Assembly (NCBI GenBank): GCA_013239625.1
Contig: MU053279.1
Location: 18,935 to 72,171, forward strand
Source of the DNA: Lama guanicoe
Lineage: Eukaryota
Reading direction: 5' to 3'
DNA: 53,237 nucleotides
Every line of letters starts with the position of its first letter. The stretch's first letter is position 1. The notes under the pieces were generated by a model, which was given only the letters and a program-made list of their open reading frames with translations, did no database searches and was not told the origin of the DNA. Position numbers and translations under genes: made by a program. Positions 177-39,949 of this stretch are shown here, one piece after another.

Positions 177-431
177 AGGATGTGGAGAAATTGGAAAAAA
201 ATCCTTTTAAATTTAAAAAGTCATTACATATTTAAAAAAAGAAACTTCAAAATTGAACTTATTTTTGATACTTAAGTTGGGGGCTACACGGCTTCAAACT
301 TACTCTAAATGAAACCAGTACTTTATGCTCCCAATTGACGGGATTCTACTAACAATGCTTTTAAATTGTTTGAAATACTTAGTCTTACTGGGTTTTAGAA
401 GTCTTGAAGCCTAATTCCCATTTTACCTTAC

Positions 432-2673
432 TTTTCTGCAGGTAGGCTGTTATAGAAATGGTGGGTGGTGATTTTAACTTTCACAGAATTCATCACCCGG
501 TGTTAAAACACACTGCATTTACGCCTTATCTGTTCCTGCAGTTTGTTGGGGTAGAGCACAAAGATTACTGCCAGACCTCCCTCTAATTATTTAAATCTAT
601 GGACCAGCTTCATAGCTTTACCTTCTCTTATGTTTCCCTCCTTTTCTTTGCACGTCAGCCTTCTTCCTCCTGTCAGGTATTTCTGGGATGGAGTTTTCTA
701 TGTTTCATTTTCCTTTCTTCTCCCACATAAGGAATAGAACTATAATTATATCTTGACTTTTACTGTTTGTGTTTTTTGACAACTGTTTTGTTCCTTTTAC
801 ATTCCTTACTTTTCCCAAATATGTTCATCTGTTAAATAATTTCCAGAAGTGTGATTTTGTTTGTGTTAATCATGCACTTTTCAACTTTTGCAGTAACAAA
901 ATAGATTTACCACTAAAATTCAACTGTATATTGTATTTACATTTTAGTACCCAATGGCTTTGTGCATTATTAAACTCACAGAATAGTCTTCTAGTTTATT
1001 TAGAGACTAAAGATTCTAAGAAAGATTTTTATATTCTTAGAAGACAAAAAAAAAAAAAAACCCGAAAAACAAAGCTATCGCCCTTGCTAAGCCATTCTTT
1101 TCTGACCTACCTTTAAATGTTGTAAGTGCTTAACCTACGCCTCTCTCTCTTCTATAACCACAAATTCCTCCAGGGAGTTCTCATTCTCACCCAAACTTTT
1201 GGTTTTTAATGCCATAATATAACCCAGTGATTCTCAAATCTCCATCAACAGACTTGACCTCTCCTTAGTGCTTGAGACTAAGCTGCTTATTTGACATCTC
1301 CGCTTGCTGTCATAAATCCAGCACAGTCAAAAGAGTACACTTAATATTAATGTTTTCCTTTCTCTATGCCTTTCAACCATCTTCCTCCTCTCAACAATAT
1401 ACTCAAATCCAAAAATCTTTGATTCCTCTTTTTCCCTTACCTCTCAAGCCCAATGCAATAACTATTCTGAACCCGAGTCCTTCTACTGCCTTGACTACCA
1501 CCCAGTTCAAGCTCTGTCATTTCTCATTTTCTCCATCCCTCTCTCCAATGCAGCAACCAGTACAAAAACTAGAAACATAAATGGTGTAACACACTTGTAT
1601 ACAACCACCCAGTAGCTCTCTATTGAACTTAAAATAAGACCCAAATCTCTTATCCTGGCCTGCAAAGCCCTTAATGATTTGGCCCTTGTCGATCTCTTTG
1701 TCCTCATATCATTTCACTTGCCCACTTCACCTGCTAGATTCCAACCAGGCTCTTTCTTATCTGGGAACAATCCATTCTCATTCTCACTTTAGAGTCATTG
1801 CACCATCTCTTCCATCTACAATAATCCTTCCTCCACACATCCAATGGCTGCTTCCTTCTGGCTATTCAATAGTCAGAGAGGCCTTCTATGACCAAACCAA
1901 TCTAATGGAGTCATCCTGCCATGTACCACCAACTTATCCTCCACAGTATGATCACTAACTGTTAACTAAATTCTTTTCTGTCTTCCTCCAGTAAAATAAA
2001 AGATACAGAAGGGGATGAACTCTGTCTCAACCACTGCTCTATCACCACAATTTGGGACATTTCTTAGCACATAGTAGGCACTCGACAAAGCTTTTATTAA
2101 ATGAATGAATTTAAAGAAGTGACTTTAAACATAACAAAACTATGAATTTCATGGCATTGATTTTTTTTCCTTTTCACAGAAAGTTATCACATTTACTAAA
2201 AGATCTCAAGTAAACATTTATTTTAGACAACTTTCATGGAAATCTGAGGCAGTAAAGAATATTAAAATGTTACATTACAATGCATAAACTATTCCAGAAT
2301 TTATAGTACTCTCAAACCCTACATGATATTACTTATGTATTATAAATTATTGCATTGTCAATAACTAAAATGCAGATAACCCATACCTCAATGTCTCTTT
2401 ACCTCATCTAAAGCATATTTTATCTTTCTCTGGATTTAAGGAATTTAATCTCAACTTTATGTGAATTTTGCTGGCAATGTGAGATATATCACCAAGGTCT
2501 GCTCCTATGGTTTGGTCTCCAATTTTTCTGGACCCCATCTGTCTCGCACTAAGACAGGTCACATTTTTCATCACATTATTCTTATAGGAAGTAGTACTTA
2601 TAGGAAGTAATCCTCCCTCCATTCTTCTGGCTTTCCCCCTCCATTTTTGTTTCAAACATTGTAAATGTAATTT
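432..2673 (-). pseudogene. Candidate decayed multi-exon gene (exon candidates 2673-2403, 1035-622, 535-432); product unidentified
   Basis: AG/GT-bounded minus-strand blocks (ttcttttag|...GAG|gtaaag; T15-gtcttctaag|...AAG|gtaaag; aactgcag|...AAA|gtaagg). Phase-1 junctions join as ...NPEKDKICFR*|EYKNLS*NL*SLNKLEDYS... and ...KYLTGGRRLTCKEKEGNIRE|GTDKA*MQCVLTPGDEFCES*. Several stops and frameshifts; no homologue recognised. Confidence 0.3.
1140..2110 (+). mobile_element. L2 LINE fragments including the 3' end
   Basis: ctgcttatttgacatctcc, aaaataagacccaaatctcttatcctggcc, and the terminal cacatagtaggcactc...aatgaatgaat typical of L2. Confidence 0.75.
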
Positions 2674-7801: not shown

Positions 7802-8941
7802 TATGAAGATAAATTTTAAGACCCCCAGTCCTTGAGAAACCGATGGTAAACATCAGTTAGATCCATTAAACTCTAACTTGCTTAGTAAATGACAAACTGC
7901 AACCTGCCTTCCCCAGTCAAGCTTTTGCTTTAATTGTTTTTATGAAAACGTGCATGTCTCCCAAGCATCACGTAGGCTGAACAGTAAGATATTTGCCCAA
8001 GTTGTTTTTCAGGGTCTGGGATCAGCTGTCCCCAGTTCACACTCAAGCCATTTAAGACTGGCTGAGACCACCAACTCTCCATGACCTTTTGACATCAGAG
8101 AGCCTAAAACTCCACCCTCAGAATGTGCTGACACCCCCATTTTTGAACATGCATCCCATGAAAATGCCTGTAGCTTAGTTGTGCCTTTGCAGAAGGATAA
8201 TTACCTCACCTTTTTCTTATCTCCAATTGTTACTGAGTCCAAACTTGTTCTGCTAGCTGCACGACAGGCTGATAAATCAGGAGACGAGGCGTTGGGGCAA
8301 GGAATAACAACTTTATTCAGAAATCCGGCAGACTGAGAAGATGGGGAACTCATGTCCTAGAGAATCATCTTCCCCAAATCAGAATTCAGGCTCCTTTTAT
8401 ACTGAAAAAGAAAGGGGGTGTGGGTGGTTCTTGCAAACTTCTTGGTGTCGGAATCCTTTGTCCTTGCAGCTGTCCACATAGGTCAGGTCAAGAAGACACA
8501 TGTTATTTTCTATTCTGCACCTTTTTAATCTCTAGATGAATGGGAAAGTGTTCTACCCTTAAAGGTCAGAGCCTTGAGAATGGGCTGTCCTGTGTATTTC
8601 GGGCTCTAGGCAACATTCTTTTACAAAAGGTGCAGAACCAGCCTGACTCAGCCCAGGAAACAGAGCCCAGGGTTAGAGCCAAAGGAACAGACCCAACACG
8701 GAGTCAGGTGTTTCTTCCCCATTACAGAATCACCTTTCCTCACGCTCCCCAAGCCTAAGGCCACCCTGCTTCTTTATCCCATAAACACTTGGAGCCCCTC
8801 ACCTTTGGGAAGGCAGATCTGAGACGTGTTCTCCCCTCCCCTCACTTAGCTGCCTTGTGTATAAATCCTTTCTCTGCTGCAGACGTTGGTGTCCAGCATT
8901 TGACTGGCTGCACGTCAGGCAAGTGGACCTTGTCAGGTTCA
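7802..8941 (+). mobile_element. ERV1-type solo LTR, interrupted by a second LTR
   Basis: 4-bp TSD GCTC (7798-7801 and 8942-8945); ta(tg)...ca ends; cataaa TATA-like box ~8780; polyA-like tataaa ~8860. Confidence 0.75.
8228..8726 (-). mobile_element. ERV1-type solo LTR nested in the 7802-8941 LTR
   Basis: TGTTA...TTACA inverted ends; flanks caat/gaat (4-bp TSD, one mismatch); the host reads ctccaat|cacctttcc across it; paralogous to 3529-4040. Confidence 0.85.
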
Positions 8942-32429: not shown

Positions 32430-34539
32430 GAAGACCAGCGCATCTAGACTGTGGGGGATTGGGATAGACAAGAGCTACAATGGTAACACAGAGGATGTCT
32501 CATGGTTCAGCAAAATGTTCTTGTTTGCTCTGCTTTGCTCCCTCTTTTTGCATCTGTGCATGAGGTTACTGAAACGAGGAGACGCAAAGAAGATGAGAGG
32601 CAGACACACTGGAAGGCAGAAAGGAAGGGTCAGATGGAGGGGGTCTGATTGAAGATATAGGACAAACAAGAAATAATCAACAGATAAAGGTCTCAGGGAA
32701 AGCTGCAAGGCTTATGACATGGGTACACAGAATTTCAGAAAGGCAAGGAATCTATGATGGCATAGAATCCAACCCTACATCTTCTAGATTTGGCAACTAA
32801 AACAGCTTCACAGCAGCAATGGCTGGGTTGCAGCATTTAGGTCCACAGCTCCAGCTGCGATTGGACACAGACCATTCAATTTGCTGTTCAGCTTAGCGGA
32901 TATAAGAATTTGGATGCAGAGATACATGCCAGTGGTCATGAGTCACACATGGCAGCCAGTCACAGTTTTCCAACATGGTGAGAAAGTGCTGACAATTAGA
33001 TATGTGTCCTTCCAGGTACAATTCTAGGGGCTGGGCATGAGAGGCCTGAGAGGCCTGAGAGGATAGATCACACAGTGAAGGACACAGAAACTGATGATCC
33101 CAGCCAGGTCTGAGGTGTCTGATATATAAAAGAATAACAGTTGCCCAAGAGGATTCTTTGGAAGTAAAAATTTTAATGACAACATTTTTAAATGCTTACA
33201 TGTAGTATATGCTCCATGAATCTGGTCCCCTTCCATTTCCAGAGGACCACAAAGGAGAACTGATTTTCATTCTTTCACATTTCCCTGATATCTACCTTCT
33301 TCCTTTTAATTGAAAAAGAAAAAAGTTCTTTTAATTCTGGTCTCTCAAACACTTTCCAATAATTGTTTTTAAAGTGCCATTTTGGGGCCCAAATTACAAC
33401 AGTTGTGCACACTGTTCTTGTCTGTGTGGCCAGAGGTGGATTCAGAAGGAAAAATCTAAGACTACAGCCCTGTACGTTTTACAGAACATAAAGTATGCTT
33501 TCACAAAAAAATTTTCTGTTGAATAATAAAAAATCAAATAGTGATTTATAGTTAATTTTTGTCTGGATGGTTGCCTGGATGTACAGAATAAATTTGGAGT
33601 TCCACAGAAAATATTCACTTTTCTGTTCATACAGGTCTGTACTCACCGCATATAATAATACTATCAACAGAAGTTTCCAAAGACCTCTTCTGTTTTCTGA
33701 ATTAACAGCAGCAAGTTTCTCTGCGAAACTGTAGATCTGTTTTTTAAATGGAAGTGGGTTTCCCCCCCAATATAGTTCCTACAATATGTGCACTGTACTG
33801 TCTTTAGCATTATTCATGGACTTTCTTCAGTTCTCAATTGGTCTAGAAATTGTTACAGTCCTGTATGTGGAAAAGTGCACTGTTTCTTGCCAAAATAATG
33901 AAATCTTTTGGTGGACAGCCCATGAAAGTAGAGTTGAACAATCATTACAGCCTAAACCACAGAGGATTAGCAAGCCAACCCTGGAGAGCAATGTCACGCC
34001 TCAGATATCTCCAATCCCAAGTCAACTTTCTCTGAAACATTCACAGGATATTTACTCTCCCCTCATGATATTTATCAAGAAACCTGGGCCTCGTTTCATC
34101 ACAAACACTTCTCACAATAAAGGGAGTTCTAACATCAAGAGTTCTTTCAGTTTCAGCAAAACATGTTTAGAAACAAACAGTTAAAATGGAAAAAAAGAAA
34201 TGAATCCAGGTAGTTATCATCAGAAGACCCTCCTCTCACTGTGTCCTCTCTCATGGGAACTGCACCATTATGCATTCCATGAAGTCTTTTGAAATAGATC
34301 CATGAGGGAATTCTGTTCCCCTGAAGACCAAGCACACGCCCTCAGCATCTCGATTTTCCACCTGACCTGTTATGGCATCTTGGCATAGTGCTCAAGTGTC
34401 AAATAATATCCCCATGGTTATTTCTCAAATGAAAAAGATATTATGCATACCTGTAACTTATATAACATTATACATCAACTATACTTAAATTTAAAAAGTT
34501 TTTTAATTAAAAAAATTTTTTTAAATAATGGTAAAAAGG

Positions 34540-35180
34540 CCATTAATAATGAGGAGAAAGTGACAGCTTTACAGTGGAGAAACCTGGAGAAAACACCTTA
34601 ACTGAGTGACAAAGGAAACATCTCCAGGAATGGGGAAACCCACCCGGTGTGCCCCTGGTTTTAGCACAGCAGCATCACCAGTGAGGCAGCGTCCCTGCCC
34701 AAAGGGAAGAACCTGAATTCAACCACAAGGAAGTATCAGACAAGCCCAGAATGAGGCGCCTTCTACAAAGCAACAAGCCTCTGGTCTTCAAAACACCAGT
34801 GGTGTGAGAGGCAAGGAGGGTCAAAGATTGCTCCCAGAAGAAAGGAGGCTAAAGCTGTATGACAGCTAAATGCAAGCATGCTGATGGGCTGGATCCTGAA
34901 GCAGAGAAAACAATGCTAGACAGGGCATTACTGGCACAATTAGTGAAATTTAAATGTAGACCAAATATGAGGTCACAGCAGTACAACAACGTGAAATTCT
35001 CTGCATTCGATAATTCCAAGGCAGTTGTGGAAGAGATACATGCTGAACAATTTAGGGGTAATGAGTCATGATGTCTGCAACTTTTTTAAAAAAAATAGAT
35101 GGAAAAAATAACAATTACAAGTATACTGAAAAGAAGAATGTGGTAAAGCAAATAAAAGTTAATAACTGATAAATCTAGGT
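34540..35180 (+). mobile_element. Old L1MC/ME-like 3' region, left part (resumes at 38261)
   Basis: acagtggagaaacctgg...accttaactgagtgacaaagg...aggaagtatcagacaagccca...aaatgcaagcatg...ctggatcctg...ataaatctaggt. Confidence 0.8.
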
Positions 35181-35245
35181 TGGGGTCAACAACTCAAAAG
35201 CAGGAACCAAACGTGACACACAATCTGTTTTTGCAAATAAAATTT
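35181..35245 (+). mobile_element. MER58 (hAT-Charlie) left half
   Basis: ggggtcaacaac...ccaaacgtgacacacaatctgtttttgcaaataaaattt corresponds to the MER58A 5' part up to GTTTTTGTAAATAAAGTTT. Confidence 0.7.
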
Positions 35246-35393
35246 GGTGGAGGAGGTGGGTCTGAGACGTGTCCTCCGGTCTCTCCTCACACAGCTGCCT
35301 TGTGAATAAGCTTGCTTGACCACAGACGTCGGCCGGCATGTCAGCATTTGGCAGGCTGCGACGTGAGCAAATGGACCTGGTGGGGACAGTCGC
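35246..35393 (+). mobile_element. R-U5 portion of an ERV1 LTR (family of 7802-8941) at the 5' end of a composite insertion
   Basis: tctgagacgtgtcctcc...agctgccttgtgaataag...cagacgtcgg...cagcatttggcaggctgc...gcaaatggacct aligns by eye to 8817-8930 (tctgagacgtgttctcc...agctgccttgtgtataaa...cagacgttgg...cagcatttgactggctgc...gcaagtggacct). Confidence 0.8.
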
Positions 35394-35646
35394 ACCCTGC
35401 TGTAATTTGACCCAGAGCACACATGTCTAGAAACATCATCCTGGCTGTACTGCATCAAAAAGCCTGAAGAGGCTGCTTCATTTAAAACCTTCCCGCTGCT
35501 GTGGTATCTTTCAGAAAGAAGCAGCCATGCCTCTCGGTGCTGTGGAGACACAATGGAGTGGGATGAATGAAACAGAGGAGTTGTGCCAAGTGCCAGAAAC
35601 AGTATTCTCATCGTCACTGACGAGGAAAGACTTGTTCCTGAGGACG

Positions 35647-36059
35647 ATTCTAACACTAAAGAAAGAAGTGGCAATTCTGTGTCTCTGATGGGTATTACTT
35701 TCTTGTCTCATCTCCTTTGACAAAAGCTGGACATCTTAGATCTGTCTCTTGAAAGCATCTACCACATTGGTCTACATTTTGGTCCCAGAGAACAGAAAGG
35801 AAAAAAAGTCTGCTGGCAGCCAAGATGCTGGAGAAGGAGTTCCTTTCACGAAAATTCTAACGCTAAAGAAAGAAGTGGCAATTCTGTGTCTCTGACGGGT
35901 ATTATTTTCTTGTCTCATCTCCTTTGACAAAAGCTGGACATCTTAGATCTGTCCCTTGAAAGCATCTACCACATTGGTCTACATTTTGGTCCCAGAGAAC
36001 AGAAAGGAAAAAAAGTCTGCTGGCAGCCAAGATGCTGGAGAAGGAGTTCCTTTCACGAA
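35647..36059. repeat. 207-bp direct tandem duplication
   Basis: Units start attctaac at 35647 and 35854 and end ttcctttcacgaa; four substitutions seen. Confidence 0.95.
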
Positions 36060-38100
36060 CATGCCAAAATCACAGCTAACTACAGAACAACCATCGATCA
36101 AAAAGACTGGAACCTACCAGAAAAGGACACATTTCCCACTTTCTTTAAGTAAAGACATAAAGAAGGAACCACAGAGAGATGGGGAGGAGGGGCAGACTTA
36201 TGATATAACCAAATTCCACACCCCTGGATGGGGACCCACAAACTGGAGAACAATTATACTGCAGAGGCTCTCCCAGGAGTGAGGGTTCTGAGCCCCACGT
36301 CAGGCTCCCCAGCCCAGGAGTCAGGCACCCCCAGAGCACTTGACTTTGAAGGCCGGTGGGGATTAACTGCAGGAGCACGACAGAACTGGGGGAAATAGAC
36401 TTCATTCTTAGAGAACGCACACAAAATGTCCTACTCATCAGTACCCAGGGCTAAAGCCGTCCTTCCATAGGAGCCTGGGCCAGACCTACCTACTGCTCTT
36501 AGAGGGCCCAGAAATAAACACGCCCACTTACAGTCAATTAATCTTTGACAAAGGAAGTAGGAATATACAATGGAGAAGAGACAGTCTCTTCAATAAGTGG
36601 TGCTGGGAAAACTGCCTGTAAAAGACTGAAATTAGAACACTCTCTAACATCATATATTAAAATAAACTCAAAATGATTAAAGACCTAAATGTAAGACTGA
36701 ATACTCTAAAACCCCTACAGGAAAACAAAGGCAGAGCACTCTTTGACATAAATCGCAGCAGTATTTTTTTGAATTCATCTCCTCAAGTAAAGGGAATAAA
36801 AGGAAAAATAAACAAATGAACCTAATTAAACTGAAAATCTTTTGCATAGAAAAGGAAACCATTAACAAAACAAAAAGAACCTATGGCATGGGAGAAATTA
36901 TTTGCAAATAATGTGACTGACTGACAAGGGATTAATTTTCAAAATATACAAACAACTCATACAGCTCAAACCCAACGCCAACAACAAAAAACCCAAACAA
37001 ACAAACAAAAACAAATAACCCATCAAAAAATGGGCAGATCTAGATCTTTCTCCAAAGATGACATGCAGATGGCCAACAGGCAAAAGAAAAGATGTTCAAC
37101 ATCACTAATTATTAGGGAAATGCAAATCAAAACTACAATGAGGTATCACCTCCCACCAGTCAAAATGGCCATCATTAAACAGTCTACAAATAATAAATGA
37201 AAGAAAGACTGTGTAGAAAATGGAACCCTTGTACACTGCTGGTGGGAATGTAAATTGATGCAGCTACTATGGAAAACAGTATGGAGGTACCTTAAAAAAC
37301 TGAAAATAGACTTACCATGAGACCCAGTAATCCCACTCCTGGGCATATATCTGAAGAAAACTCTAATTCAGAAAGATATACACACCCCAATGTTCATAGT
37401 AGCACTCTTTACAATAGCCATGACATGGAAGCAACCTAAGTGTCCACTGGCAGATGCCTGCATAAAGAAGATGTGGTATATATACACAATGAAGTATTAT
37501 TCAGGCACAAAAAAGAATGAAATAATGCCATTCATAGCAACATGGATGGACTTAGAAATTAGATAATACTGAGTAAAGTAAGTCAAAGACAAAGGCCATA
37601 CGATTATCAGTTATATGTGGAACCTAAAAAAAAAATGATACAAATGAACTTATTTACAAACTAGAAATAGACTCAGACATAGCAAAGTATGGTTACCAAA
37701 GGGGAGAAGGGGAGGGGGAGAGATAAGTTAGGAGTTTGGGATTAACATATACACACTACTTTTATATAAAACAGATAAACAACAAGGACCTATGGTATAA
37801 CAGTATCCAGTATCTTGTGATAACCTATAGTGCAAAAAAATCTGAAAAAGAATATATATGTATGTATATGTGTTTGTGTGTGTGTGTATACATATATATA
37901 TATATTTGCTGTACATTTGAAGTTAACAATATTGTATATTTTGGGGGGGTGGTAGTAATTGGGTTTTATTTATTTTTTAATGACGGTACTGGGGATTGAA
38001 CCCAGGACCTCGTGCATGCTAAGCACCCATTGTCACTGAGCTGTACCCTTCCCCCTAACACAACATTGTAAATCAACTATACTTCAATGAAAAAGGTGGT
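36026..38100 (+). mobile_element. L1 with 5' UTR, large internal deletion, ORF2 3' part and 3' UTR
   Basis: 5' UTR (ccaagatg...aaaagactggaacctaccagaaaag...gggttctgagccccacgtcaggctccccagcc) to ~36505 is joined to ORF2 (cccagaaataaac...aatctttgacaaagg...ctggtgggaatgtaaattg...) and a 3' UTR ending aaatcaactatacttcaatgaaaaa. Confidence 0.9.
37937..38055 (-). mobile_element. vic-1-type SINE inserted in the L1 3' UTR
   Basis: ggtactggggattgaacccaggacctcgtgcatgctaagc...ctgagctgtacccttccccc; degenerate TSD taacaatattgta / taacacaacattgta. Confidence 0.88.
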
Positions 38101-38260
38101 TAAAAATTTATTGGAACACAGCCACATCCACTCCTTTATGCATTTGTATATGTGGTTGCTTTTGTGCTACAAGAGCTGAGCTGATAGTTGGAACAGTTTG
38201 CATGGCCAAGAAAGGCAACAATATTCACTAATCCTTGTCAGCACATTTTGCCGTACCCTG
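38101..38260 (+). mobile_element. MER58 right half
   Basis: aaattttattggaacacagccacatccactcctttatg...tggttgcttttgtgctacaa...atggcc...aatattcacta...tttgccgtaccctg. Confidence 0.85.
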
Positions 38261-38346
38261 ATTTAGAGGAAAGGTATACGAAAGTTCTTTATACTATTCT
38301 CGTAACTTTTCTGAAGTGTTTAAAATCAAGTTACAAATTAAAAATC
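38261..38346 (+). mobile_element. Old L1MC/ME-like 3' end, right part
   Basis: atttagaggaaaggtatacgaaagttctttatactattctcgtaacttttctg continues from ...aatctaggt at 35180. Confidence 0.75.
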
Positions 38347-39368
38347 AATACATCAAGTAATGTTAAAATTACACAAAATCTCAAATTTTCTTCAACAGGC
38401 ACCCTTGAGATTTGTTATGGGCACGTATCTACGGGGAAAAGGTGATTTTAAAAATAGCAAAGTGGCTATAAACAAGCTGTAAGAAGAAATGGAGGCTTAG
38501 AAACAAATGCTTGAGATATGAAACCCCATCCTGACTAGACAGCATGTCTTCCCACAATGTTTAAAAAGAACCTTCTAGGCTTTGTAAAGTTGTATCTACC
38601 AGGTTCTATAAACAGGTGGTTAACCACAGTCTCAGGAACCCTAAGGGTCCTGAGGCCAGAGAAGCCCCAGGCGTCCTGGGGTCCCAGGGTAATTCCACGG
38701 CGGTTGTGTGAAGACTCCAATCATCCTGACTCTGTCTTGGTTTCTAATTATAAAGCACAGGAAATGAGCCATGTGGTCCAGTTCATGTCTGAGAATGTCC
38801 CTCCATCCTCTGTCCTAAATAAACCCTTTTTGCAACATCAAAGCAAAGCATTTCTCACAGTGAAAATAGGAAATGAGTATAACCTACTTATTTTGCCATC
38901 ACAAACCATTCAATGACATGTCCTGGGCATTGATTCGCTTTCAGTAGTATTTGCACTTGCTGCGTAAAGTCATACAGAAATTCTAAAATCAGCAGAATCA
39001 GCCCATCTCTGTTACAAATCCCCCGAGGAAAAGCTGACATCGGTGCCTGGCCAATGCAGGGATGTAAAGTTTCTTCTCCCTCAGATGAGGAAGCTTAGGT
39101 CCTAATGTGAACATTTTTCTAAAGAGAAGTGGAGAAGTGACCCTCAGTGGGAAATGTACCACAGAAGCAGACGGCTCAGTCAGATGATGTCCACAGACAG
39201 CCTCTCCTCCCAGAAAACTAAAAGTGTGCATTTCACCCACGTGCTGAAAAACTCAATGACAGCTAGAAGATATTTCTCTGTGTCATTTCAAGGCCAGAAG
39301 GTATAACATGCACACACACGTACACTTTTTATTATAGTTTGATCACAGCATCTGTATCTTTTTTGCAG

Positions 39369-39413
39369 GTACCAAATCAACCACCCCCTCTTTCTCCCAT
39401 GTGACCCCCTCAG
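39369..39413 (+). other. Candidate 45-nt symmetric micro-exon
   Basis: tgtatcttttttgcag|GTACC...CTCAG|gtaatc; phase-1 reading TKSTTPSFSHVTPS. Confidence 0.2.
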
Positions 39414-39949
39414 GTAATCAAAATACCTCAGGGAAGCTGTCATCACCATTAGTCAGATGTTCAGGCTAAATCAAGAGCCATCTCGTGCTTCCATTTTGTC
39501 CGATTCTGCACAGCTCCATGGGAGTTCCCTGTCACAGCGGACTGCGGGCTTAAACAGTCAGGCGCCACCTCCCTGGTGAAAGCCAGAACTGAATCCTCAC
39601 AGCAGGGTCCTGATGTGGCTGAGGCCCAGGTTAAGGGACTCCTCCTGACATGGCCCAAGCTGAATGGAGATTAGGACTTCCCTCCCTTCATGCCACATTT
39701 AAAACCTTAGGCCAGTCTAGCATTGATCCTTATCTCTGTATATATTTTTCCTACACATTTTCTTAACAATGCACAATTCTTCAGAAATCGTGTAATTGGT
39801 GGTGTTGGAGAGCCGTGTCAATCGTGTTCCCAAGCTGGGTGGCCTGCTATCCTTTTCCCCCTGAGCTCCTGGGCTTATAAACTGTGACATACGTCACGGG
39901 AGTCACTCAGCTTTGCAAATTTGCCCCTATGTTAAGCCTCTCAGAGCTA

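What the first reader, a model, noticed from the sequence alone, without database searches (positions are those of the whole stretch)
35246..38100. Chimeric retro-insertion: an ERV-LTR-promoted transcript carrying unique sequence plus an L1 (candidate 5' transduction)
Seen: a MER58 is cut into halves (35181-35245 and 38101-38260) with aaaattt repeated at both junctions (35239-35245, 38103-38109), so the 2.86 kb between them behaves as one insertion. The L1 5' UTR only starts at ~36026. The first ~150 bp are the R-U5 of the LTR family found at 7802-8941. They start at the position ~25 nt after that LTR's cataaa TATA-like box, with no U3, and carry AATAAG where the LTR polyA signal would be. About 600 bp of non-repeat sequence follows. 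Established: L1 target-primed reverse transcription makes A-rich TSDs, and upstream promoters can produce 5' transductions. Inference: an LTR elsewhere in the genome drove a read-through, possibly spliced, RNA into a full-length L1, and that RNA was copied here from its cap site. This is a fossil record of a germline LTR-driven L1 source locus.
Basis: partly seen in the sequence, partly recalled or inferred. Interest (0 to 1): 0.75.

Follow-up and report, generated by a model that had tools for sequence, protein, structure and literature searches.

The report
LTR-started spliced RNA fused to L1
A 2.86-kb insertion in an old DNA transposon is a reverse-transcribed copy of a spliced, non-coding RNA that started in a retroviral LTR and is joined to the exact 5' end of a LINE-1, a rare but already described kind of chimeric retrocopy.

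Summary
35246-38100 is one insertion, flanked by an exact 7-bp duplication (aaaattt), inside a MER58-like element whose halves are contiguous in 8 of 8 other copies. It starts with R-U5 of the LTR family at 7802-8941 and has no U3.

The "unique" leader is a processed copy of spliced exons. The only related locus in this assembly, contig C6176, holds the pieces in the same order and strand:
- an LTR with U3, whose U5 end reads cag|gtaaat;
- 7.1 kb on, an exon bounded by AG and GTAAGT;
- 182 kb on, another exon preceded by a pyrimidine tract and AG.

A 40-nt exon was not located. The L1 5' terminus is complete, judged against 10 other L1 5' ends. The L1 lacks about 4 kb internally.

Two corrections:
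- 35647-36060 is a window-specific 207-bp tandem duplication, so the L1 5' end occurs twice (about 35812 and 36019).
- The only "siblings" are segmental duplicates that share the flanks.

C6176 has no L1 where the last exon ends, so an LTR-driven L1 source locus is not shown.

Best reading: one L1-mediated insertion of a chimeric RNA (0.75). How the joint formed is open. This is a new member of the known mRNA/lncRNA-L1 5' chimeras.

The parts
35181..35245 (+). Left half of the interrupted MER58-like DNA-transposon copy
   Evidence: Contiguous with 38110-38262 in 8 of 8 other family copies. 2 of 8 by BLAST, overlapping by the TSD length.
35239..35245 (.). Left copy of the target-site duplication, AAAATTT
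   Evidence: Exact 7/7 with 38103-38109. The paralog reads aaaatct / aaaattt.
35246..35251 (+). Six nucleotides (ggtgga) of unassigned origin at the 5' end of the insert
   Evidence: Not securely alignable to any LTR copy. Present in the paralog too.
35252..35384 (+). Exon 1 of the copied RNA: R-U5 of an ERV LTR, no U3. AATAAG at 35305-35310.
   Evidence: 74.4% to window LTR 8818-8933. 64-69% to the C6176 LTR at 9593595-9593464. Only this sequence and the C6176 LTR share a 4-5-nt extra 'ggc(a/g)t' and a 'ggcc' variant among 8 aligned rows, two of which are the chimera and its segmental duplicate.
35385..35550 (+). Exon 2 of the copied RNA
   Evidence: 79% to C6176:9586377-9586219 (minus strand). 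There it is preceded by ccaccaccag| and followed by |gtaagt.
35551..35590 (+). Exon 3 (40 nt, ends ...caag); genomic origin not located
   Evidence: Lies between two exon-exon junctions. No credible match in C6176:9400001-9600000, which contains 3 N runs of 363, 508 and 1723 nt.
35591..35811 (+). Exon 4 of the copied RNA. Its last 4 nt (gtct, 35808-35811) are unassigned.
   Evidence: 78-82% to C6176:9404018-9403792 (minus strand), preceded there by ttttcctgtccatatccag|. Homology ends at the A-run. The paralog reads ggagaaaac, as C6176 does.
35647..36060 (+). Window-specific tandem duplication, 2 x 207 bp, spanning the end of exon 4 and the first ~45 nt of L1
   Evidence: 97.6% identity between the units. 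The C1594 paralog has a single unit.
35812..35853 (+). First occurrence of the L1 5' terminus (cut short by the tandem duplication)
   Evidence: Same text as 36019-36060. It matches the 5' ends of other L1 copies.
36019..36508 (+). L1 5' terminus and 5'UTR
   Evidence: Ten other L1 copies (L008-L016, L019) become alike 30-45 nt before the position matching 36048 and have unrelated sequence upstream. The window copy starts within a few nt of L008 and L013.
36509..37566 (+). Remnant of the C-terminal part of L1 ORF2. ORF1 and most of ORF2 are deleted between 36508 and 36509.
   Evidence: 37321-37566 matches human ORF2p residues 1170-1250, E 2e-23. Other L1 copies align only from about 36500 onwards. 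0 of 8 full-length 5'UTRs have GT at the breakpoint.
37567..38094 (+). L1 3'UTR with a (TG/TA)n stretch, ending ...caactatacttcaatgaaaaa
   Evidence: The 3' terminal text is shared with other L1 copies in the window and in fetched loci.
37946..38054 (-). tRNA-like SINE nested in the L1 3' end, a later insertion with its own ~16-nt duplication
   Evidence: Read. Matches other SINE copies in the window. Shared with the paralog.
38095..38102 (+). Non-A residue of the tail (ggtggtta; the paralog has gtttgtta)
38103..38109 (.). Right copy of the target-site duplication, AAAATTT
38110..38262 (+). Right half of the MER58-like element
7802..8941 (+). Copy of the same LTR family with U3, used for comparison.

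Best explanation
One L1-mediated (target-primed) insertion put a chimeric RNA copy into a MER58-like element.

**The 5' part.** It is a capped, spliced, apparently non-coding transcript that started in the R region of an ERV LTR.
- It ran through U5 to a splice donor at the very end of the LTR.
- It was then spliced to three downstream exons.
- The parent-like locus, or a duplicate of it, is on contig C6176: the LTR at 9.5935 Mb, exon 2 at 9.5863 Mb and exon 4 at 9.4039 Mb, all on the minus strand.

**The 3' part.** It is an L1 RNA with a complete 5' terminus.

**Later events.**
- A SINE inserted in the L1 3' end.
- The whole region was segmentally duplicated (C1594, about 7-8% K2P).
- In the window copy only, a 207-bp piece across the exon 4/L1 joint was tandemly duplicated.
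- The ~4-kb L1 deletion predates the segmental duplication. Whether it arose during or after integration is unknown.

**Shown.**
- One TSD pair encloses everything.
- The insert starts at the expected LTR cap site.
- The copy lacks the introns that the source-like locus has.
- The L1 5' end is complete.

**Inferred: how the lncRNA and the L1 became joined.** I split the 0.75 into two routes.
- About 0.4: joining without an L1 at the source gene, by a reverse-transcriptase jump from the L1 5' end onto the other RNA, or by RNA-RNA joining.
- About 0.35: read-through into an L1 that sat at the end of exon 4 on an allele or duplicate that is no longer in the assembly.
For: **One insertion.**
- The TSD is 7/7 exact, and the host element is contiguous in 8 of 8 other copies.
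- Both junctions are shared with the paralog.

**LTR start.**
- R-U5 homology starts 27 nt after the TATA-like box, and there is no U3.

**Splicing and source locus.**
- A genome search with 35246-36100 found 23 matches. The leader matched only its own segmental duplicates and two places 182 kb apart on C6176.
- A sensitive BLAST of 200 kb of C6176 added an LTR R-U5 7.1 kb upstream of exon 2, on the same strand.
- The boundaries in C6176 read cag|gtaaat (LTR end), ccaccaccag| and |gtaagt (exon 2), and tccatatccag| (exon 4).
- The C6176 LTR extends at least 400 nt upstream of the TATA-like box, as shown by 586 aligned columns with another family copy.
- Only the chimera and the C6176 LTR share a small insertion and a 'ggcc' variant among the 8 aligned rows, two of which are the chimera and its duplicate.
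- Only 2 copies of this LTR family were seen in about 310 kb of sequence that was not chosen for containing it. An LTR in the right orientation within 7 kb by chance is therefore roughly a 2% event (my estimate).

**L1 5' end.**
- It is complete when compared with 10 other L1 5' ends.

**No separate L1 duplication.**
- The best 12-mer match around the L1 is 8/12. Shuffles reach that in 933 of 5000 trials (paralog) and 2854 of 5000 (window).

**Literature.**
- 17 human L1 insertions carry mRNA or lncRNA first exons on the 5' end of mostly near-full-length L1s.
- 15 of the source genes have no intronic L1.
- These events favour exons that lie before long introns (passages of bioRxiv 10.1101/2025.02.02.635956).
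Against: - Identity to C6176 is low: 79-84% in the exons and only 64-69% in the LTR part.
- The C6176 LTR is no closer overall to the chimera than other family copies are (70-74%). 20 of the 47 mismatches lie at CpG sites. C6176 may therefore be a relative of the true source, not the source itself.
- At the predicted exon 1/exon 2 joint, 3-4 nt do not match (window ggg against predicted tcag).
- Exon 3 was not found.
- Exon 4 does not end at a good splice donor or poly(A) signal in C6176.
- The poly(A) tail is only 5 A followed by 7 non-A bases.
- No empty orthologous site could be examined.
- The LTR-to-exon 2 splice was not seen in RNA.
Confidence: 0.75

Rival explanations
1. Classical 5' transduction. 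A full-length L1 lay at the end of exon 4 in the LTR-driven gene. The LTR transcript was spliced, read into the L1, ended at the L1 poly(A) signal, and was retrotransposed in cis. This is a sub-case of the single-event reading: it differs only in how the joint was made, and its 0.35 is part of the 0.75 above.
For: - The L1 5' terminus is complete.
- An A-run lies 12 nt before the L1 start, as expected for the start of an older L1 target duplication.
- The only poly(A)-type signal near the 3' end of the insert is the L1's own (aatgaa).
- L1 5' transductions are documented, including one human source element with 20 events, all at the 5' end (passages of bioRxiv 10.1101/2024.04.18.590093).
Against: - C6176 has no L1 after exon 4.
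- The genome search found no other locus with leader plus L1 apart from segmental duplicates.
- There are no sibling insertions.
- The L1 lacks ORF1 and most of ORF2, so cis mobilisation requires that the deletion came later.
Confidence: 0.35
2. Two separate events. A processed retrocopy of the LTR-started RNA inserted first. Later an unrelated L1 inserted into its last few nucleotides, in the same orientation.
For: - Nested L1 insertions are common, and A-rich retrocopy tails are good L1 endonuclease targets (established knowledge).
- A weak repeat exists around the L1: aaaacgttgtct upstream and aaaaagtttgtt downstream in the paralog.
Against: - That repeat is no better than chance: 933 of 5000 shuffles reach it.
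- The L1 would have to be one of the minority with a complete 5' end.
- It would have to land within about 13 nt of the retrocopy's end.
- The retrocopy would end without a poly(A) signal and with a tail of at most 5 A.
- The only clear TSD encloses both parts.
Confidence: 0.15
3. The leader is not a gene copy at all. It would be ERV internal (post-PBS) sequence, or native L1 5'UTR monomers like those of mouse L1.
For: - It directly follows U5.
- It contains a 207-bp tandem repeat next to the L1 5'UTR.
Against: - The leader's relatives on C6176 are split by 7.1 kb and 182 kb and have splice signals.
- None of 6 LTR copies examined (the window LTR, C6176, L007, L017, L018, L020) is followed by leader-like sequence.
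- The leader is low-copy in the genome.
- The tandem repeat is absent from the paralog and from 10 other L1 5' ends.
Confidence: 0.02

Closest known systems
[quoted passage not shown]
   Same: - First exon(s) of a transcript, spliced and in sense orientation, sit on the 5' end of an L1 with a (near-)complete 5' end.
- One TSD pair encloses both parts.
- The source gene has no L1.
- A very long intron is involved (182 kb here).
   Different: - Exon 1 here is the R-U5 of an ERV LTR.
- The last exon does not end at a recognisable splice donor.
- The L1 has lost about 4 kb internally.
- The event is old, and identity to the source-like locus is only about 80%.
- The species is not human.
Classical L1 5' transduction (read-through from a promoter upstream of a source L1). 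Population data are in bioRxiv 10.1101/2024.04.18.590093 (passages read). The first descriptions are recalled, not read here.
   Same: Non-L1 sequence lies 5' of a 5'-complete L1, inside the TSD.
   Different: - The transduced part is spliced from about 190 kb of genome rather than being contiguous flank.
- No source L1 was found at the related locus.
SVA_F1 / MAST2-SVA: a 5' exon acquired by splicing (seen only as titles and abstracts in the listing; the details are recalled)
   Same: A host gene's first exon is spliced onto a non-LTR retroelement RNA and carried along by the L1 machinery.
   Different: - That chimera became a propagating subfamily. Here there are no independent siblings.
- The acceptor element there is SVA, not L1.
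Template-switch or RNA-ligation chimeric retrogenes (U6/L1 and tripartite pseudogenes: PMC6789731, PMC2104539, PMC4476161; listings and abstracts only)
   Same: Two or three different RNAs are copied head to tail, in the same orientation, within one TSD pair.
   Different: - In U6/L1 chimeras the L1 part is usually 5'-truncated and the 5' partner is a small RNA.
- Here the L1 5' end is complete and the partner is a spliced Pol II transcript.
LTR-derived alternative promoters and first exons of host lncRNAs or genes (established knowledge, recalled)
   Same: The TATA-like box, start in R, donor at the U5 end and splice into downstream host exons are all readable at C6176.
   Different: Use of this LTR as a promoter is inferred from the fossil cDNA copy. 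It was not demonstrated by RNA data here.

Membership tests
L1-mediated (TPRT) retro-insertion | Target-site duplication flanking the insert at a T|AAAA-like site | tested here: met
   AAAATTT 7/7, preceded by ...aat. The host element is contiguous in 8 of 8 other copies.
L1-mediated (TPRT) retro-insertion | Poly(A) tail at the 3' end | tested here: inconclusive
   Only gaaaaa, then 7-8 non-A bases, before the A-rich TSD. This is compatible with decay of an old tail.
Processed (spliced) retrocopy | Colinear with exons of a multi-exon locus, with the introns missing and GT/AG at the parental boundaries | tested here: met
   C6176 holds the LTR end cag|gtaaat, exon 2 bounded by ag| and |gtaagt, and exon 4 preceded by ag|. 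The spacings are 7.1 kb and 182 kb. One 40-nt exon was not located.
Classical L1 5' transduction | A source locus where the transduced sequence directly abuts a full-length L1 | tested here: not met
   The own-genome search gave only segmental duplicates and C6176, which has no L1 after exon 4. A lost or unassembled source cannot be excluded.
Classical L1 5' transduction | Sibling insertions with the same leader at other sites | tested here: not met
   0 independent siblings. C1594, C45399 and C45424 share the flanks or are 99.6-99.8% duplicates of the C1594 copy.
mRNA/lncRNA-L1 5' chimeric insertion | First exon(s) in sense orientation, joined to a 5'-complete L1, within one TSD pair | tested here: met
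mRNA/lncRNA-L1 5' chimeric insertion | The upstream exon ends at a splice donor (seen in 6 of 17 human cases, so not obligatory) | tested here: not met
   In C6176 the homology ends at ...ggagaaaac, followed by ctaa|gtacaa, which is only a poor donor.
U6/L1-type template-switch chimeras | The 3' partner L1 is 5'-truncated and the 5' partner is a complete small RNA | tested here: not met
   The L1 5' terminus is complete. The 5' partner is a spliced Pol II RNA.
LTR-initiated host transcript | Transcription start in R, about 25-30 nt after the TATA-like box | tested here: met
   The cDNA copy begins 21-27 nt after the box. This is indirect, because it rests on the fossil copy only.
LTR-initiated host transcript | RNA reads joining the LTR to a downstream exon | not testable with these tools
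   RNA runs hold exon 2 words (X1 0.65; X2-X5 0.53 of 17 words).
L1 5' monomer array (mouse-type) | Tandem units that are a family property of the L1 5'UTR | tested here: not met
   The 207-bp duplication is absent from the paralog and from 10 other L1 5' ends. It also includes non-L1 exon sequence.

The most novel reading that the evidence does not exclude
The joint was made at the RNA level, by a reverse-transcriptase jump from the capped L1 5' end onto a germline-expressed, LTR-driven lncRNA, or by RNA-RNA joining. On this reading the fossil records an L1 acquiring a foreign, ERV-derived 5' leader outside primates. The later 207-bp tandem duplication across the leader/L1 joint would show how monomer-like repeats can arise at L1 5' ends. 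If the C6176 LTR-lncRNA is still expressed in reproductive tissue, as the unlaid RNA-run listing hints, the donor gene of a roughly 50-million-year-old event would still be identifiable.
Probability: 0.3. Interest if true: 0.55.

Novelty: new member of a known kind. Interest (0 to 1): 0.4.

Why it matters
The locus is a clean, dissectable example of three things.
- An ERV LTR acted as the promoter and first exon of a host non-coding transcript in the germ line. The heritable cDNA copy is itself the evidence for this.
- It shows the rare class of insertions in which spliced host exons ride on the 5' end of an L1. That class has been proposed as a route by which L1s change their 5' regulatory regions.
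- It shows how such a composite is later reshaped by SINE nesting, segmental duplication and tandem duplication.

It is not a new mechanism, and it has no evident function today. Its value is as a non-primate case that bears on the open question of how these joints form: read-through, trans-splicing or template jumping.

Tried and rejected
1. **L1 with its own TSD (nested model).** The candidate repeat aaaacgttgtct / aaaaagtttgtt is not better than chance: 933 of 5000 shuffles reach it for the paralog and 2854 of 5000 for the window.
2. **L1 internal deletion as a splice (spliced L1 isoform).** 0 of 8 full-length L1 5'UTRs have GT at the breakpoint. Rejected.
3. **Exon 3 (35551-35590) in C6176.** The two weak minus-strand matches (9481001-9480972 and 9540000-9539958) lack AG/GT boundaries. 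Not located.
4. **Coding potential of the leader.**
   - The longest sense ORF is 53 aa (35527-35688).
   - Five ORF translations were scanned: the 53-aa leader ORF, a 73-aa ORF in the L1 5'UTR, and three ORF2-remnant frames.
   - There were 0 Pfam hits at E<=0.01 for 0 of 5.
   - The ATG of the 53-aa ORF is GTG in C6176.
5. **RNA evidence for the LTR-exon 2 splice.**
   - The look-up of sequencing runs listed 6 RNA rows from 3 studies (P1, P2, P3) that hold exon 2 words.
   - Five of them hold at least half of the 17 words; these come from 2 studies.
This is therefore only a hint. It cannot tell spliced RNA from pre-mRNA or DNA.
6. **Further genome fetches.** Loci were not cut. The full extent of the segmental duplication is therefore unknown: it is at least window 33726-39861.
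7. **Earlier notes of this scan.** None for this place.
8. **Dating the L1 against the leader.** The best non-duplicate L1 matches are 74-80% identical, but only 40 of 30373 candidates were scored. This is compatible with a single event and is not a test of it.
9. **Literature search.** The terms '5 transduction' + spliced + LINE-1 + LTR returned 0 papers. The apostrophe in the usual spelling probably defeats that search, so this is no evidence that LTR-started cases are unpublished.
Full report
**1. The observation**

The window is G000:C546:18935-72171 of a 2.05-Gb assembly.

- AAAATTT stands at 35239-35245 and at 38103-38109.
- I searched the genome with the right half of the host element and printed the neighbourhood in eight unrelated copies. 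All 8 of 8 read ...tttgtaaataaagtttt-attggaacacagcc... without interruption and carry the 7-mer once.
- With BLAST at E<=0.01, only 2 of the 8 showed the short, diverged left half. In both it overlapped the right half by 7-8 nt, which is the duplicated length.
- So 35246-38102 is one insertion with a 7-bp target-site duplication at a T|AAAA-type site.

**2. The LTR part**

- 35252-35381 aligns to the 3' end of the window LTR (8818-8933; 74.4%, E 2e-12). It also aligns to four further family copies found in the genome (L007, L017, L018, L020).
- Secure homology begins at 35252, which corresponds to 8809, 27 nt after the T of the 'cataaa' box. No U3 is present.
- The hexamer at the family's poly(A)-signal position is AATAAG (35305-35310).
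- The six bases 35246-35251 (ggtgga) cannot be assigned.
- The start of the insert therefore coincides with the expected cap site of an LTR transcript. This is inferred from the TATA distance. No mapped start site exists for this family.

**3. The 'unique' leader is a spliced RNA copy**

- An own-genome search with 35246-36100 gave 23 matches.
  - Besides the window itself, the leader hit one contig (C1594) and two 0.5-kb contigs that proved to be duplicates of the same locus (section 6).
  - It also hit two places on contig C6176 that lie 182 kb apart on the same strand. Window 35384-35548 matches 9586378-9586221 (79%), and 35589-35806 matches 9404020-9403792 (78%).
- In C6176 the first segment is preceded by ...ttccccaccaccaccag| and followed by |gtaagt. 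The second is preceded by ...ttttcctgtccatatccag|.
- A sensitive BLAST of 200 kb of C6176 then found R-U5 of the same LTR family at 9593595-9593468, 7.1 kb upstream of the first segment and on the same strand.
  - Its U5 end reads ggacctggttcag|gtaaat, a good 5' splice site lying in the last bases of the LTR.
  - That LTR continues at least 400 nt upstream of its TATA-like box: it gives 586 aligned columns with copy L018. So it has U3.
- Order, orientation and boundaries therefore match a transcript made of these exons, in window coordinates:
  - E1: R-U5, 35252-35384.
  - E2: 35385-35550.
  - E3: 35551-35590, 40 nt, ending ...caag. It was not located in C6176, which has three N runs in the interval.
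  - E4: 35591 to about 35811.
- Only the chimera (both duplicate copies) and the C6176 LTR share a 4-5-nt extra 'ggc(a/g)t' and a 'ggcc' variant among the eight rows aligned, two of which are the chimera and its duplicate.
- I saw only two copies of this LTR family in about 310 kb of sequence not chosen for containing it. A same-strand LTR within 7 kb by chance is therefore roughly a 2% event. This is my rough estimate from a small sample.

Against a simple 'C6176 is the source' reading:
- The LTR part is only 64-69% identical (K2P 0.41-0.49), against 79-84% for the exons (K2P 0.18-0.26).
- 20 of its 47 mismatches lie at CpG sites.
- At the predicted E1/E2 joint, 3-4 nt disagree.
- C6176 is thus the source or a close relative of it. 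It is the only candidate in this assembly.

The leader has no convincing coding capacity.
- The longest sense ORF is 53 aa.
- None of the five ORF translations scanned (the 53-aa leader ORF, one ORF in the L1 5'UTR and three ORF2-remnant frames) hit Pfam at E<=0.01.
- The ATG of the 53-aa ORF is GTG in C6176.

**4. The L1 part**

- Ten other L1 copies (L008-L016, L019) become mutually alike 30-45 nt upstream of the position matching window 36048, and each has unrelated sequence before that.
- Their 5' ends read ...g(g)(c/t)tggcagccaagatgg.... The window has gctggcagccaagatg at about 35812 and again at about 36019. The L1 5' terminus is therefore complete.
- The 5'UTR runs to about 36508. The element then jumps to the last quarter of ORF2.
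  - Other L1s align only from about 36500 onward.
  - 37321-37566 matches human ORF2p residues 1170-1250, E 2e-23.
- About 4 kb, comprising ORF1 and the endonuclease and reverse-transcriptase domains, is missing.
  - The deletion is shared with the paralog.
  - It shows no splice-donor signature in 0 of 8 full-length 5'UTRs.
- The element ends ...caactatacttcaatgaaaaa, like other L1s. Then come 7-8 non-A bases and the TSD.

**5.

- 35647-35853 and 35854-36060 are a 207-bp tandem duplication, 97.6% identical. It spans the end of E4 and the first ~45 nt of the L1.
- It is absent from the paralog and from other L1 5' ends. It is therefore a late, local event, not a monomer array and not extra 'unique' sequence.

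**6. Copies elsewhere**

- C1594:1045527-1051500 is colinear with window 33726-39861 at about 90% (BLAST identity, gaps counted) or 92-93% (gap-free columns; K2P 0.07-0.08). It includes both flanks and both junctions.
- Contigs C45399 and C45424 are 99.6-99.8% duplicates of that copy.
- These are segmental or assembly duplicates, not sibling insertions. There are 0 independent siblings.
- The paralog keeps ggagaaaac at the end of E4, exactly as C6176 does. The window's longer A-run is derived.

**7. Mechanism**

The case for a single target-primed insertion of a composite RNA (0.75):
- One clear TSD pair encloses everything.
- The 5' end is an RNA cap site.
- The introns are gone.
- The L1 5' end is complete.
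- No L1-specific duplication exists. The best candidate is reached by 933 of 5000 shuffles (paralog) and 2854 of 5000 (window).

A nested, two-step origin (0.15) needs all of the following:
- a 5'-complete L1 landing within about 13 nt of the retrocopy's end;
- a retrocopy with no poly(A) signal and almost no tail;
- an L1 without a recognisable TSD.

How the two RNAs were joined is not resolved.
- *Read-through from an L1 resident at the end of E4 (classical 5' transduction, 0.35).*
  - It fits the complete L1 5' end.
  - It fits the fact that the only poly(A)-type signal is the L1's.
  - C6176 has no L1 there. An L1-bearing allele or duplicate would have to have been lost.
- *Joining without a resident L1 (0.4).* This would be a template jump from the L1 5' end, or RNA-RNA joining.
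  - It fits the absence of that L1.
  - It fits the human precedent: 17 mRNA/lncRNA-L1 5' chimeras, mostly with near-full-length L1. Fifteen of the source genes lack an intronic L1, and exons before long introns are favoured (passages of bioRxiv 10.1101/2025.02.02.635956).
  - Here, however, E4 does not end at a usable splice donor, which speaks against trans-splicing in particular.

**8. Rough timing (inference)**

- I assumed a neutral rate of about 2.2e-9 per site per year. That rate is recalled, not measured here.
- The exon distances to C6176 (mean K2P about 0.21) put the retro-insertion at about 50 million years ago.
- The flank distance between the window and C1594 (0.07-0.08) puts the segmental duplication at about 17 million years ago.
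- The tandem duplication (0.025) is placed at about 6 million years ago.
- The L1 body is 74-80% identical to the best-scored other copies, but only 40 of 30373 candidates were scored. This is compatible with an old, contemporaneous L1 but is not a test.

**9. Expression**

- RNA-labelled runs hold exon E2 words. X1 holds 0.65 of the 17 sampled words. X2-X5, labelled reproductive-system samples, hold 0.53 each.
Whether these are spliced, LTR-joined transcripts is unknown.

**10. Verdict**

It is unproven in its last step, a resident full-length L1 at an LTR-driven source locus.
- The structure belongs to a rare but described class, so I rate it a new member of a known kind, of moderate interest.

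Noticed in passing
window 195-1072 and 37663-39768; locus L043 (G000:C2563:11831300-11834461): A third, rearranged duplicate. In C2563 a 97.7% copy of window 37663-39768 is joined directly to a 96.8% copy of window 195-1072. That copy therefore lacks the 36.6 kb in between, including most of the insertion studied here. The region is rich in segmental duplications.
   Followed up: partly
window ~37946-38054 (minus strand): A tRNA-like SINE is nested in the L1 3' end with its own ~16-nt duplication (taacaatattgtatat / taacacaacattgtaaat). The C1594 copy has it too, so it is older than the segmental duplication.
   Followed up: partly
contigs C45399, C45424, C11766, C42285 (L003, L004, L042): Four contigs of 0.4-0.5 kb are 99.6-100% identical to parts of the window or of its C1594 paralog. 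They are assembly redundancy or haplotigs, and they inflate apparent copy number.
   Followed up: yes
L040 / G000:C6176:~9593560-9593530 (minus strand): The C6176 LTR has lost the aataaa-type hexamer that the other family copies keep in R. This would favour read-through of the LTR into its U5-end splice donor.
   Followed up: no
window 35385-35811 versus C1594 and C6176: The window copy of the leader is further from C6176 than the paralog is (E2 K2P 0.263 against 0.189; E4 0.206 against 0.180). The window copy has therefore changed faster since the duplication.
   Followed up: no
window 36022-36060 versus other L1 5' ends: This L1 lacks about 12 nt (…ccagagctcacc…) that 9 of 10 other L1 5' termini carry just after the first 30 nt.
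   Followed up: no
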